Source: Haliotis rubra (taxonomy: Eukaryota). From it: a DNA stretch of 62,687 nucleotides. The DNA lies in the NCBI RefSeq assembly GCF_003918875.1, contig NW_025765147.1, forward strand, positions 186,001-248,687. The letters are read 5' to 3'. Position numbers: made by a program. Shown piece by piece: positions 42,001 to 45,000 of the stretch. Each line of letters starts with the position of its first letter. The first letter of the stretch is position 1.

Positions 42001-45000
42001 AATCCAAGGATTACTTGCTCCAAGATACTCCGTTGTGCAAGTTTAAAGTGTTTCTGCGGTGTTAGTCACGAGCTCGACCATCAGTCATGAACGACGAAAT
42101 CCACTTTCGTCTCACCAGTGGATCCTTCCCCCCTGACGTCAGTGGCATCGAGCTTACACCAAGTTAGTCGCACTGCTGTGAGCTCTGGGGATAACAACGT
42201 GCGTCTGATAGGTTGTCTGGCTCTATACCCTGCCGAAGTTAGGTAGTTTTGGACCAATCTGATGGACAAACGACGATGTGGAAGCCACTCTGATTTAACT
42301 ACGCCACTTGACAAAACGGGTAATGTCTTGGGATTCTGAGAATGCCTGTATCCTCCCTATGAGTTGTGACTCGCGGTCGTCGTGAAAGCTGACGGAACAT
42401 AACATCCTTAGTTTGCTGATGTTTTCTGGCCAGTCGGCTGATGACAACTTAACCATCATCTACTGACAAGCCCTGAACGACATGTTAGCATTCAGTATAC
42501 CAGTAACTTGCCATCTGTGAGAAGTTGTCTGTTAAGGAGGCCCTATATGTGTTTATCAACAATGGCATCAATTCATTTTCCAGGTGTAACAACAGTTTAC
42601 TGAAACTTGACATTTACTTAATGACAGGTGATGCGCGTAATGCTCGCCTTAGACTGGAACACGTGCATAACTAAATTAATGTATTGTACGCCCGATGAGT
42701 CAAAATACTCATTCAAACAAACATAATTATGATATGAATATAAATTGACATATGGGAGTTAAAAATCACAGGTGTTGCGGTACTTTTACCATGTGTATAG
42801 TTAAACGCGAACGATACGTTACGCCGTTACGCATACGGGTACTGATTTAGACATTAGTTCCGTTGAAGATACAAACGTGCATATGAAGGTGAAGGTATTT
42901 CGTGTAGTCACGGCATCGTAGGCCTGTGCTATGCTTTATATTATGAATTCTAATGGTATCGAAGAACGAAATGAGTAAAGTGAGCGAAGGAGTTACAACG
43001 TATAGTCACATTGACTTTATTTCAGCACCATCCTGACTAAACAAGTTATGAGTGATATATATTTTAATTATACAAACCTGTCGACAAAGGCCAGTATAAG
43101 TAACTAGAAAATCACAGAAACAGTATTGAAAATCTCTAAATATCTCTACAATTTAAGTTATATTTAGAACAATACAAATTACAAACGTTCTATGCATCGC
43201 CAGAAACTGAAGGTAAATCACCATACTAGGGACCATGGGGAAGTACAGTACTGACAGATTTACACGTTCCCTTAAGCCGTTGACACATAAATTGAAATCA
43301 AAACTATTCTACGTTATGAATGCTGATAGACTTATACGTAGGCTGAAAGAGGACCATAATTTTACAATGCTTCAAACTCTGTGTGGATACAGCCACTAAC
43401 AATATCAGGTATTAATATAAACTACAAACTATAAAGCATATACTTGTTTAAAAAACAGGTTTCAAATTTTATGAAACAATTCAATTTCTTATAACAATCC
43501 AATAATTAAATGAGAATTGACATTATGGAAAAGATCCTTCACTGTTTTTACAATGAAATATATATCCTTTGTGATTGAAAAATATGAACAAAATAATGTA
43601 TCGTCATTGACTAAACACATGTACATAAAACTTCTACCGTATATTTCCATAGATTCAGCATCATCGCACCTTCTGTAGGTTGGCGATTTGGTGGTACATT
43701 TGCTGGAATCAGCAATATATCTCTCCTTGTCAAGATTATTTTGTAGTTTTGGAATCAAGTACAAAAGAGGAATGGGCATGTCTTCAGGTGTAATAGTCAA
43801 GACAAACGCTGATAGCGCTGATGAAAGGTTTAGGCAAATACATATATTTCTAGTACCGTATATTTCCACCTCGCAGAAACTCAGATTCAGCATGCTAGCT
43901 GTAGGTTGGCGATATATCCGGAGATGGATCCCCGTCAGGGGTACATCACACTCCAGGGTGTACTCTGCTTCCCACATGTAGGAAGAGTTCGCGATGTGAC
44001 ATATTCTTCCATCTACAGACACATTTACGTCATCCTGTTGATCTGGAATATGTTGAGAAGAATGAACCAAATACCTTACACTAAATACAGATTCGGGTGT
44101 TTTTAGCATTGCTGTAACATAATAGCTGGTCAATTAATGTTTAAGATGTCTCATATAAAGTACTTGTCTGATATAAAGACCTTGTCAGTATTAGTACTAT
44201 TAATTTTGTCCGTATTAGTACGCAGCGGCGTAAAACTTTCGTTATTTTGTGTTTCTGATGACACAGTACCTTCCCAGAATATCTTGATCCTGGTAACTGT
44301 CCTGCTCTGTGTAAACTCCGCCTCCCATGCTGGGTATAAGGACGAGACTGATGCACACGGTCCTGACGTCACACCATCAGTAACCCAGGATGCCTGTCCA
44401 GTGATGGTGTAAGACTTGTTGTCCCCAGATGTAAAGTTACTCGCTGCTATATTATCTGTAATAATAAACAGTATCATTATCCGTGGTATGATAAGTTCAT
44501 CACATTCCAATATGGTGATTCAGGTTGGAATAACTGTACGTACTGCATGTAGAATCCAGAAAATGTTCTTTTACTTCGGCTTGTCATCACGAGTTGTTTA
44601 AAACGTTCCAGTATCTTGCATCAGCTTTCAGCATTAGTCTATTGTTATATCTTCATCTCAATCAGATTGGACACTATTGTATCGTTTTCTGCACTACATT
44701 CTTTATATTGTGTTGCTACTACTTACACTTAATTTAATTTAAAGTAAAAACCTAATGTGCTAACATAAACACTAAACTAATGGCAATGCGATTTAAATGT
44801 ACATGATGTCTTATTGTGCATCATTGACAAACATATTCCGTTCGCAGTTATGGGCAACATATTAAATAAATAGGTAACTGAAAAGCAGGTGTAAATTGTA
44901 ATCCTGACCTGCCTTACCTGTAACAGCCATAATCAAAACATCGATATCAACGTTACCTGCGGTACAGTTCTGGGTGCAGCTGGGGTCTTGGCCGGGCACT

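What the first reader, a model, noticed from the sequence alone, without database searches (positions are those of the whole stretch)
43630..43700. Relic of a second lectin exon suggests ectodomain swapping in the PTP gene
Downstream of PTP exon 4 and its Penelope-like fragment (both shared with paralog F) sits an orphan exon-4 3' end, PTYRRCDDAES..EIY|gtagaag. It has the RRC insertion and donor flank of paralog B (54200-54270), not of C or F. The junction is at ~43686 with GAT microhomology. Inference: the phosphatase gene acquired an F-type ectodomain by recombination, leaving part of a B-type exon behind.
Basis: partly seen in the sequence, partly recalled or inferred. Interest (0 to 1): 0.68.

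Follow-up and report, generated by a model that had tools for sequence, protein, structure and literature searches.

The report
Leftover exon piece in abalone phosphatase gene
Inside an intron of an abalone receptor phosphatase gene sits the broken-off tail of a second, differently typed copy of the preceding exon, a scar which suggests the gene's outer, sugar-binding-like half was re-joined to its inner half by a DNA rearrangement between neighbouring gene copies.

Summary
The window is abalone (Haliotis) DNA and the genes lie on the minus strand. A receptor tyrosine phosphatase gene has lectin-like exons 1-4 (45367-43857), a mucin stalk exon (41554-41363), a TM exon and PTP exons down to 31051. 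In intron 4, 169 nt after the real donor, lie the last 47 nt of another exon 4 (43684-43638), its donor, and 48 nt of intron.

This relic shares a 6-nt insertion and the donor flank with pseudogene paralog B. The insertion is absent from C, F and 11 of 11 database relatives.

The sequence between exon 4 and the relic is a reverse-transcriptase-like fragment shared with paralog F. In F it runs on past the breakpoint, so the C junction is secondary. The junction has 3 nt of microhomology (ATC; GAT on the plus strand).

Best reading (about 0.5): a non-homologous deletion or unequal recombination joined a C/F-type lectin cassette to the remainder of a B-type family gene. All cassette exons are phase 1, so the frame survived.

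Not excluded: a templated or captured 99-nt insert next to a LINE fragment, a long target-site duplication, or misassembly.

"Acquired from F" is not shown, "Penelope-like" rests on lead-level evidence only, and "lectin" is a fold-level label. This is an ordinary kind of event with an unusually legible scar.

The parts
45310..45367 (-). PTP gene (paralog C) exon 1: ATG and signal peptide MITQNAIVYLILMAVWISQ, ending in phase 1
   Evidence: homologous to the N-terminus of P0008
44918..44998 (-). C exon 2 (81 nt, phase 1-1), cysteine-rich linker
44270..44455 (-). C exon 3 (186 nt, phase 1-1), first half of the lectin-like domain
   Evidence: 98% to H. rubra P0004
43857..44042 (-). C exon 4 (186 nt, phase 1-1), second half of the lectin-like domain; donor GT at 43856-43855
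   Evidence: 167 of 186 nt identical to F exon 4 and 163 of 186 aligned to B
43838..43856 (-). First ~19-22 nt of intron 4, still homologous to B's intron
   Evidence: B similarity ends at 43837/54192
43688..43837 (-). Reverse-transcriptase-like retroelement fragment, same orientation as the gene, shared with F and cut off at the junction
   Evidence: C copy aligns to P0022 only up to residue 166
43685..43687 (-). Junction: ATC (GAT on the plus strand) common to the retroelement side and the exon side
43638..43684 (-). Relic: last 47 nt of a B-type exon 4, with the 6-nt insertion and a private 13-nt deletion
43589..43637 (-). Relic's donor (GT 43637-43636) and 48 nt of B-like intron flank, with a private 6-nt insertion
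   Evidence: 37 of 43 aligned flank columns identical to B
42960..43588 (-). 5'-truncated LINE 3' end (coding tail plus 3' UTR with an ACTC-rich end), same orientation as the gene; the low end is approximate
42734..42877 (-). Conserved intron-4 element 'P', also present in B's intron 4 (53878-53747) and upstream of exon 5 at 60513-60449
41363..41554 (-). Exon 5, mucin-like stalk (phase 1-1), homologous to the exon-5 regions at 51430-51561 and 60224-60408
39191..39263 (-). Exon 6, transmembrane segment
31051..38961 (-). Exons 7 onward: juxtamembrane region, PTP domain D1 (WPD loop and VHCSAGVGRTG present) and a D2-like domain
54167..54405 (-). Paralog B exon 4 (54405-54210; +1 frameshift, 6-nt insertion) and the intron flank that matches the relic
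530..999 (-). Paralog F exon 4 (999-814), intron start, and the retroelement fragment that runs on past the C breakpoint (equivalent position 644-642)

Best explanation
The relic is the in-place stump of a B-type lectin exon 4, left by one non-homologous rearrangement inside a tandem cluster of abalone receptor genes.

Each gene in the cluster has a lectin-like cassette (exons 1-4), intron 4, then a mucin stalk exon, a TM exon, and either a tyrosine-motif (YxN) tail or phosphatase domains.

A C/F-type gene had picked up a 5'-truncated reverse-transcriptase element about 20 nt into intron 4. A break inside that element was later joined, through 3 nt of microhomology, to a point 47 nt before the end of exon 4 of a B-type gene lying downstream. 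The joining event could have been a deletion, an unequal exchange or a duplication junction.

The result is today's transcription unit: C-type exons 1-4 splice from their own donor across the scar to stalk exon 5 and the phosphatase. Because every cassette exon is phase 1-1, the reading frame survived. The stump has no acceptor and decayed (a 13-nt deletion).

Shown: the anatomy, the B-type characters, and the secondary nature of the break. Inferred: that the stump belonged to the gene that owned exon 5 and the phosphatase, and the kind of rearrangement.
For: 1. Anatomy. The order is exon 4, 19-22 nt of family intron, RT-like fragment, ATC, 47-nt exon end, donor, 48-nt B-like intron. All pieces are collinear and in gene orientation.

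2. B-type characters. The relic shares with B a 6-nt insertion, the following GCG codon, and a donor flank without CT. The insertion is absent in 11 of 11 database relatives from four Haliotis species (P0013 was dropped because it has no exon-4 part; P0004 is C's own ortholog). B's V in EVEVY is B-private: C, F, the relic and the database relatives all have I at that position.

3. C and F share the retroelement at the same intron position (148 of 169 identical, no gaps). The exon-4 tree gives (F,(P0004,C)) with support 84/86.

4. F's fragment aligns to RT-like protein P0022 across the breakpoint (residues 119-204, 47 of 86 identical, no gaps). C's copy stops at residue 166. The representative search gave 724 hits at E<=1e-3, and the listed matches mostly span query residues about 6-92.

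5. Downstream of the relic come the family's intron element P and exon 5 in the right order.

6. The gene model is real. H. rubra P0004 joins exons 3 and 4 to exon 5 and the TM exon. H. cracherodii P0008 has the full signal peptide-lectin-mucin-TM-PTP architecture.

7. Exchange between tail types is seen elsewhere. P0008 (PTP type) and P0016 (YxN type) share a lectin domain and a 30-of-34-identical stalk stretch. Lectin exons group by species group, not by tail type.

8. The relic is 14% diverged from B and has private indels, so it is not a fresh copy or a simple assembly chimera of B.
Against: 1. B-like sequence spans only 99 nt and ends within 0-12 nt of the start of a LINE fragment. Immediately after the LINE, no B-like intron resumes: score 11.0 against a shuffle mean of 11.0, with 238 of 500 shuffles at or above it.

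2. Element P is only about 73% identical between C and B (my count), against 86% for the relic.

3. No clear target-site duplication shows the LINE entered a pre-existing B-like flank. The best candidate scores 8, and 172 of 2000 shuffles reach that.

4. By substitutions the relic's exon part is nearer to C and F than to B.

5. Three-way comparison of B, C and F is mosaic and cannot be rooted.

6. H. cracherodii's phosphatase-linked lectin (P0008) lacks the insertion, so no B-type phosphatase gene has been seen anywhere.

7. What lies downstream of F is outside the window.
Confidence: 0.5

Rival explanations
1. Captured or templated insert. The C lectin cassette and the phosphatase half always belonged together. 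A break in C's intron-4 retroelement was repaired with a 99-nt piece copied from a B-type paralog. The copy came either from DNA (template switching during repair; B lies 10.5 kb upstream in the same orientation) or from unspliced B-type RNA picked up by the LINE reverse transcriptase at its 5' junction. Under this reading no ectodomain swap took place.
For: - The B-like piece is short (99 nt) and abuts the 5'-truncated LINE in the same orientation.
- No B-like sequence follows directly after the LINE.
- Three nt of microhomology at the upstream junction is what end joining at such junctions gives (the mechanism is recalled, not tested).
- A second phosphatase paralog, P0007, sits on the same H. 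rubra contig. That allows a whole-gene duplication in which C and F each always had a phosphatase.
Against: - The relic lacks at least 3-4 B-private changes, so B as it stands today is not the template.
- The piece runs exactly up to a natural exon end and donor, and is followed in order by the family's intron element P and exon 5. In-place descent predicts this, whereas a random capture does not.
- The sequence after the LINE shows no continuation of F's retroelement (score 15.5; 54 of 300 shuffles reach it) and no duplication of the retroelement-side flank (1887 of 2000 shuffles reach the score).
- Capture of an internal piece of pre-mRNA is a rare event (recalled).
Confidence: 0.22
2. Long target-site duplication. 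The retroelement entered intron 4 of the C/F ancestor with a duplication of 69 nt or more (the exon-4 end plus about 22 nt of intron). C later lost the rest of the element by a deletion ending inside the downstream duplicate. The relic is then C's own sequence, and its 'B-like' flank is simply the ancestral intron.
For: - It explains why C/F-B similarity ends about 20 nt into the intron, and why the relic carries the intron beyond that point.
- The relic's exon part has fewer substitutions against F (2 of 44) and C (4 of 44) than against B (7 of 50).
- Penelope-like elements are 5'-truncated on insertion (PMC8969392, passage read).
Against: - It needs the 6-nt insertion to arise before the B/C/F split and then be removed exactly in the C/F exon, because 11 of 11 relatives lack it.
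- It also needs the CT indel and several substitutions in the first 19 nt of C/F's intron, where the relic matches B.
- It needs an unusually long duplication and a second deletion that ends inside it.
- No relic is seen in the about 810 nt of F that lie downstream of its donor, though F's element may run off the window.
Confidence: 0.07
3. Assembly artefact. The junction is a misjoin or a collapsed haplotype, and the relic belongs to another B-type paralog elsewhere in the genome.
For: The region is a tandem cluster of 70-90% similar units rich in transposons, which is hard to assemble. No reads or second assembly could be consulted.
Against: - Assemblers join on long overlaps, not on 3 nt.
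- The relic is not identical to any other copy in the window (86% to B, with private indels).
- The sequence on both sides is unique and continuous.
- The H. rubra protein model P0004 follows the same exon order across this intron, although that does not test the intron itself.
Confidence: 0.08

Closest known systems
Hybrid genes made by unequal exchange or deletion between tandem paralogs (haemoglobin Lepore, red/green opsin hybrids; recalled, not searched)
   Same: The 5' half of one tandem copy is fused to the 3' half of the next. The reading frame is kept and the intervening DNA is lost.
   Different: Those arise by homologous misalignment and leave no scar. Here the break joins an intronic retroelement to an exon interior through 3 nt of microhomology, and it leaves a 47-nt exon stump with its donor.
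Exon shuffling of extracellular modules through phase-1 introns (recalled general principle)
   Same: Exons 2, 3, 4 and 5 are all phase 1-1. The breakpoint is intronic on the upstream side, so the cassette swaps in frame.
   Different: This is an exchange between close paralogs within one cluster, not the recruitment of a foreign domain.
Paired receptor families in which one ectodomain type is coupled to opposing signalling tails (vertebrate KIR, Ly49, SIRP; recalled)
   Same: One lectin-like ectodomain type is coupled either to phosphatase domains (P0008 and the window gene) or to a YxN-rich tail (P0015, P0016 and the window units at 58478-58918 and 5299-5658). Ectodomains group by species group rather than by tail.
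   Different: There is no functional or expression evidence. The fold and the tails are different. The parallel is an analogy only.
F-type lectin / CBM32 / discoidin (galactose-binding-domain-like) fold, e.g. eel fucolectin 1k12
   Same: The predicted fold is an all-beta sandwich. The best Foldseek matches are CBM32 4a42_B (E 1.4e-4), 1k12 (E 3.2e-4, 24% identity) and 3cqo. The domain ends in the LxxCEVE(I/V)Y motif.
   Different: The model has low confidence (pLDDT 58.6). Pfam PF22633 is hit only below its cut-off. The recalled fucose-binding H..R.D..R/K motif is found in 0 of 11 relatives.
Penelope-like retroelements (RT plus GIY-YIG)
   Same: The fragment matches the N-terminal RT region of a large eukaryotic family. 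A 671-aa homolog has structural neighbours in clusters that carry GIY-YIG and RVT_1. The insertion is 5'-truncated, as described for these elements (PMC8969392).
   Different: Only about 50 codons (C) to 90 codons (F) are present. No endonuclease domain, no terminal repeat and no hammerhead ribozyme is present (Rfam gave 0 matches in the window).

Membership tests
Relic (vestigial) exon of the lectin cassette, B type | Significant collinear similarity to an exon-4 3' end plus donor plus intron start | tested here: met
   80 of 93 aligned columns identical to B; score 53.5 against a shuffle maximum of 16.5
Relic (vestigial) exon of the lectin cassette, B type | Shares derived characters with B that C, F and outgroups lack | tested here: met
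   The 6-nt insertion is present in B and the relic and absent in C, F and 11 of 11 database proteins. Polarity of the donor-flank CT indel is unknown.
Relic (vestigial) exon of the lectin cassette, B type | Nearer to B than to C or F by substitutions | tested here: not met
   Exon part: B 43 of 50, C 40 of 44, F 42 of 44. This is explained by B-private changes in a pseudogene, but it is not positive support.
In-place remnant of the phosphatase gene's former exon 4 | B-type intron continues beyond the relic to exon 5 | tested here: inconclusive
   48 nt of B-like flank are followed by a LINE. There is no B-like sequence right after it. Element P and exon 5 follow in order but are only about 64-74% similar to other copies.
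Microhomology-mediated non-homologous junction | Breakpoints at non-homologous positions with a few shared bases | tested here: met
   Retroelement interior joined to exon interior, with ATC shared. Three nt alone is only weakly above chance.
Homologous unequal crossing-over (NAHR) | Breakpoints at equivalent positions of the two paralogs | tested here: not met
   The upstream break is in intron 4 (retroelement) and the downstream break is 47 nt inside exon 4.
Classical receptor protein tyrosine phosphatase | Signal peptide, TM segment, PTP domain with WPD loop and HC(X5)R | tested here: met
   Pfam Y_phosphatase on exon peptides, E 1.4e-12 and 2.8e-11. SWPDHGVP and VHC|SAGVGRTG are present. 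Signal peptide and TM exons are present. The exons cover P0007 residues 101-702.
F-type lectin domain | Pfam or sequence-profile match at the curated threshold | tested here: not met
   Exon peptides gave 0 families at E<=10. Full database relatives hit PF22633 at E 0.018-0.32, below the cut-off of 27.8 bits.
F-type lectin domain | Galactose-binding-domain-like beta-sandwich fold | tested here: inconclusive
   The AlphaFold2 model has pLDDT 58.6 (block means 54-83 over the modelled domain). Foldseek top hits are CBM32 and F-lectins at E 1e-4 to 1e-3, TM 0.4-0.6.
F-type lectin domain | Fucose-binding His/Arg/Arg motif (recalled as H-x24-R-x-D-x4-R/K) | tested here: not met
   A relaxed regular expression matched 0 of 11 family proteins.
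Penelope-like element | Reverse transcriptase of the PLE type together with a GIY-YIG endonuclease | tested here: inconclusive
   Only the RT N-terminal region is present. 3 of 11 long homologs have sub-threshold RVT_1. Structural neighbours of homolog P0056 carry GIY-YIG in 29-52% of members.
Penelope-like element | Hammerhead ribozyme or terminal repeats | tested here: not met
   Rfam gathering scan of the whole window gave 0 matches. The fragment is too short to carry them.

The most novel reading that the evidence does not exclude
The abalone cluster may work as a paired-receptor system. One fast-evolving lectin-like cassette (exons 1-4, all phase 1) is repeatedly re-dealt, by breaks in intron 4, between a phosphatase-tailed receptor and YxN-motif-tailed receptors. 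The relic would then be a physical scar of such a re-deal.

A further twist is possible. The relic's donor lies exactly 219 nt (73 open codons) downstream of the real donor and in the same phase. It could therefore serve as an alternative splice site that exonises the retroelement fragment.
Probability: 0.2. Interest if true: 0.6.

Novelty: new member of a known kind. Interest (0 to 1): 0.38.

Why it matters
Domain and exon shuffling is usually inferred from protein architectures. A breakpoint that still carries the stump of the replaced exon, its donor, and a datable retroelement on the other side is a rare, directly readable record of how a receptor's outside can be re-coupled to a different inside.

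If orthologous loci confirm it, the case gives a concrete mechanism for ectodomain turnover in a mollusc receptor cluster: non-homologous joining inside intron 4 of phase-1 cassettes. That cluster pairs one lectin-like ectodomain with either a phosphatase or a tyrosine-motif tail.

If the relic is instead only a captured filler, it is a minor curiosity of intron repair.

Tried and rejected
- Pfam on single exon peptides of the lectin cassette and on the retroelement fragment found nothing even at E<=10.
- PDB sequence search with P0004 gave only chance TM hits.
- Rfam over the whole window gave 0 matches.
- I looked for B-like intron after the LINE and found none next to it.
- I looked for F's retroelement continuing after the LINE. 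The result was not significant (54 of 300 shuffles).
- I looked for a target-site duplication of the LINE. The result was not significant (172 of 2000).
They mainly show a long B branch and a short C branch.
- Simple insertion of a C/F unit into a B-type exon 4 was rejected. The sequence upstream of the C unit is B's complete exon 4 and intron 4, not a truncated exon.
- Simple tandem duplication of the B-to-C segment was rejected as sufficient. What follows the relic is the phosphatase gene body, not a copy of the YxN unit.
- Literature searches for a lectin-domain phosphatase in Haliotis or molluscs listed nothing relevant (listings only).
- No eukaryotic genome collection was available, so orthologous loci, the DNA downstream of F and the reads stayed unchecked. 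The closed metagenome and viral collections were not used.
Exons were searched one by one.
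Full report
What the window is. The window has no N. Six-frame ORFs scanned against Pfam gave protein-tyrosine-phosphatase exons on the minus strand (34086-34301, E 1.4e-12; 35011-35229, E 2.8e-11). They also gave several retroelements. Exon-by-exon protein searches returned only Haliotis proteins.
- H. rubra LOC124266042 (P0004) matches the window's exons at 95-100%.
- A second H. rubra phosphatase, P0007, on the same contig matches at 80-100% per exon.
- H. cracherodii P0008 (939 aa) has the complete architecture: signal peptide, lectin-like domain, mucin stalk, TM and two PTP domains.
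The window is therefore abalone DNA, not human. I did not search with a joined spliced model. Domain-level checks used database proteins.

Gene structure.
- Exon 1: 45367-45310, signal peptide.
- Exon 2: 44998-44918.
- Exon 3: 44455-44270.
- Exon 4: 44042-43857.
- Exon 5: 41554-41363, stalk.
- Exon 6: 39263-39191, TM.
- Exon 7: 38961-38915.
- Exon 8: to 38339.
- PTP exons: down to 31051.
Exons 2-5 are all phase 1-1.

The cluster. Self-comparison shows three collinear units: F (642-7179), C (43685-51584) and B (54192-60412). Database relatives P0015 and P0016 show that family genes run lectin cassette, then mucin exon, then TM, then a YxN-rich tail. A repeat 'unit' is therefore the 3' half of one gene plus the lectin cassette of the next. 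The phosphatase gene's exon-5 region is homologous to the exon-5 regions at 51430-51561 and 60224-60408 (64-67%). B's cassette is a pseudogene. It has a deletion and frameshift in exon 3, an in-frame TGA in exon 3, a lost exon-3 donor, and a +1 frameshift in a G run of exon 4.

The observation. On the minus strand, exon 4 ends ...GAAATATACG|GTACTAGAA. About 19-22 nt of intron are still alignable to B. Then comes a 150-nt stretch shared only with F, where C and F are 148 of 169 identical without gaps from the donor to the break. At 43687-43685 (ATC) the sequence switches to the last 47 nt of an exon 4, a donor, and 48 nt of intron that align to B 54272-54167. The evidence for that alignment is:
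- 80 of 93 aligned columns identical;
- one 13-nt deletion and one 6-nt insertion private to the relic;
- score 53.5 against a shuffle maximum of 16.5, with 0 of 300 shuffles reaching it;
- BLAST E 5e-13.
In the true frame the 'RRC insertion' is a two-codon insertion: B QPT-ED-ARMLNL, relic QPT-EG-AMMLNL, C QPTASMLNL, F QPTVGMLNL.

Is the relic B-type? The 6-nt insertion is shared by B and the relic. It is absent from C, from F, and from 11 of 11 database proteins that contain exon 4. Those come from H. rubra, H. asinina, H. rufescens and H. cracherodii. P0013 lacks exon 4 and was dropped, and P0004 is C's own ortholog. The insertion is therefore derived. The relic also shares with B the GCG codon after the insertion and a donor flank without the CT of C and F. 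By substitutions the exon part is not nearer to B (43 of 50) than to C (40 of 44) or F (42 of 44). At least one of the B differences (V for I in EVEIY) is B-private by outgroup comparison. The best tree is ((B, relic),(C, F)), with a long B branch. The (C, F) pairing is supported by the shared retroelement insertion and moderately by the exon-4 protein tree (84/86). Three-way sliding windows are mosaic and cannot be rooted.

The fragment between exon and relic. F's 92-codon read-through was searched against 1.84 billion representative proteins. It gave 724 hits at E<=1e-3 and 78 at E<=1e-10, and the listed matches mostly span query residues about 6-92.
- Against P0022, F aligns without gaps over residues 119-204 (47 of 86 identical), crossing the breakpoint.
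- C's copy aligns only up to residue 166.
- Three of 11 long homologs carry sub-threshold RVT_1 next to or over the matched region.
- Atlas neighbours of homolog P0056 include clusters with GIY-YIG and RVT_1.
- No hammerhead or other Rfam family is in the window.
So this is a 5'-truncated reverse-transcriptase fragment. 'Penelope-like' is plausible but rests on lead-level evidence. The important point is that F keeps more of the element, so the C junction is a later break inside a pre-existing insertion.

What follows the relic. The B-like flank ends at 43589. There a 5'-truncated LINE 3' end begins (to about 42960), in gene orientation, with copies at 23086-23766, 24230-24885 and 40248-40921.
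- Directly after the LINE there is no B-like sequence: score 11.0 against a shuffle mean of 11.0.
- There is no continuation of F's element (54 of 300 shuffles).
- No convincing target-site duplication was found (172 of 2000 shuffles).
- About 80 nt further on lies a conserved intron-4 element P. It spans 42877-42734, matching B 53878-53747 and 60513-60449, with 0 of 300 shuffles in both tests.
- The P core is only about 73% identical between C and B (my count).
- After P come a Tc1-like fragment (42084-42356) and exon 5.

Interpretation. The most economical account is one non-homologous joining between the retroelement in intron 4 of a C/F-type gene and a point 47 nt from the end of exon 4 of a B-type gene downstream. 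This could be a deletion, an unequal exchange or a duplication junction. It would give a chimeric unit whose cassette (exons 1-4) and body (exon 5 to the phosphatase) have different histories. Phase-1 exons keep it in frame.

'From F' is not supported. F's unit starts abruptly in mid exon 5 (7179 against 51232 and 60126), so F looks like a partial copy of a proto-C region made before C's break.

Relic-B divergence (14%) is about the same as C-F divergence (10-12%). Both pairs may therefore date from one block duplication, but the phosphatase body between the relic and F's unit is not explained by a simple tandem copy.

Rivals. I cannot exclude three alternatives.
- The 99-nt piece is a templated or captured insert at the LINE's 5' junction (no swap).
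- It is a long target-site duplication of the retroelement followed by a deletion. That needs an exact reversal of the 6-nt insertion in C/F.
- It is a misassembly. That is unlikely for a 3-nt overlap and a relic that is 14% diverged from every other copy.

The 'lectin' label. Single exons hit no Pfam family. Full relatives hit PF22633 only below threshold (E 0.018-0.32). An AlphaFold2 model of P0012 with a 12-sequence alignment is of low confidence (pLDDT 58.6). It is all-beta, and its best PDB matches are CBM32 modules and fish F-type lectins (E 1e-4 to 1e-3). The fucose-binding motif as I recall it is absent in 0 of 11 relatives. The domain is lectin-like by fold only.

Context. In H. cracherodii the phosphatase-type (P0008) and YxN-type (P0016) proteins share the lectin domain and a 30-of-34-identical stalk stretch. 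In per-exon trees lectin sequences group by species group rather than by tail type. Both points fit repeated exchange or homogenisation of the cassette between tail types. My searches (listings only) listed no paper on such a family. For Penelope-like elements I read only passages of PMC8969392. Supplementary files were not consulted.

Verdict. This is a known kind of event (a chimeric gene from a rearrangement between tandem paralogs) with an unusually legible scar. It is of moderate interest.

Noticed in passing
window 43638-43857 (-): The relic's donor lies exactly 219 nt (73 codons, no stop) downstream of the real exon-4 donor and in the same phase. Using it would extend exon 4 in frame through the retroelement fragment. 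Only 183 of 5000 random 219-nt windows are open in a given frame. There is no evidence that it is used.
   Followed up: partly
window 54210-55605 (-): Paralog B's lectin cassette is a pseudogene. It has an exon-3 deletion and frameshift, an in-frame TGA, a lost exon-3 donor (AAG|TTC), and a +1 frameshift in a G run of exon 4.
   Followed up: yes
window 58478-58918, 48934-49364, 5299-5894 (-): These are cytoplasmic-tail exons with repeated YxN motifs (YVNT, YVNN, YVNV), like H. rufescens P0015 and H. cracherodii P0016. The copy at 58478-58918 is one open frame of 147 codons. The C-unit and F-unit copies need a frame change. The same lectin ectodomain is therefore paired with a phosphatase or with a tyrosine-motif tail.
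   Followed up: partly
window 38337-38341 (-): Exon 8 of the phosphatase gene is followed by GCAAGT, a GC rather than GT donor. The H. rubra model P0004 reads through here and stops, so lectin and phosphatase are not joined in that annotation. The downstream PTP exons nevertheless look intact.
   Followed up: partly
window 15219-18198 and 19497-23181 (+): Two LINE copies (76% identical) carry endonuclease, reverse transcriptase and RNase H domains. Their 3' ends recur at 23768-24886 and 40229-40932, and as the fragment in intron 4.
   Followed up: partly
window 27344-28731: A tandem array of a 47-nt unit, 29.7 copies, 82% matches.
   Followed up: no
window 12265-13118 (-): ORFs with DUF3504 and QRICH1-like domains, probably a mobile-element-derived gene or fragment.
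   Followed up: no
window 7179 / 51232 / 60126: F's unit begins abruptly in the middle of the mucin exon 5, next to a dispersed repeat (7190-7637). The C and B units stay similar to each other for about 380 nt more. F therefore looks like a truncated partial copy.
   Followed up: partly
database proteins P0008 and P0016 (H. cracherodii): The phosphatase-type and YxN-type proteins of one species share a stalk stretch with 30 of 34 residues identical. This hints at exchange between tail types there too.
   Followed up: partly
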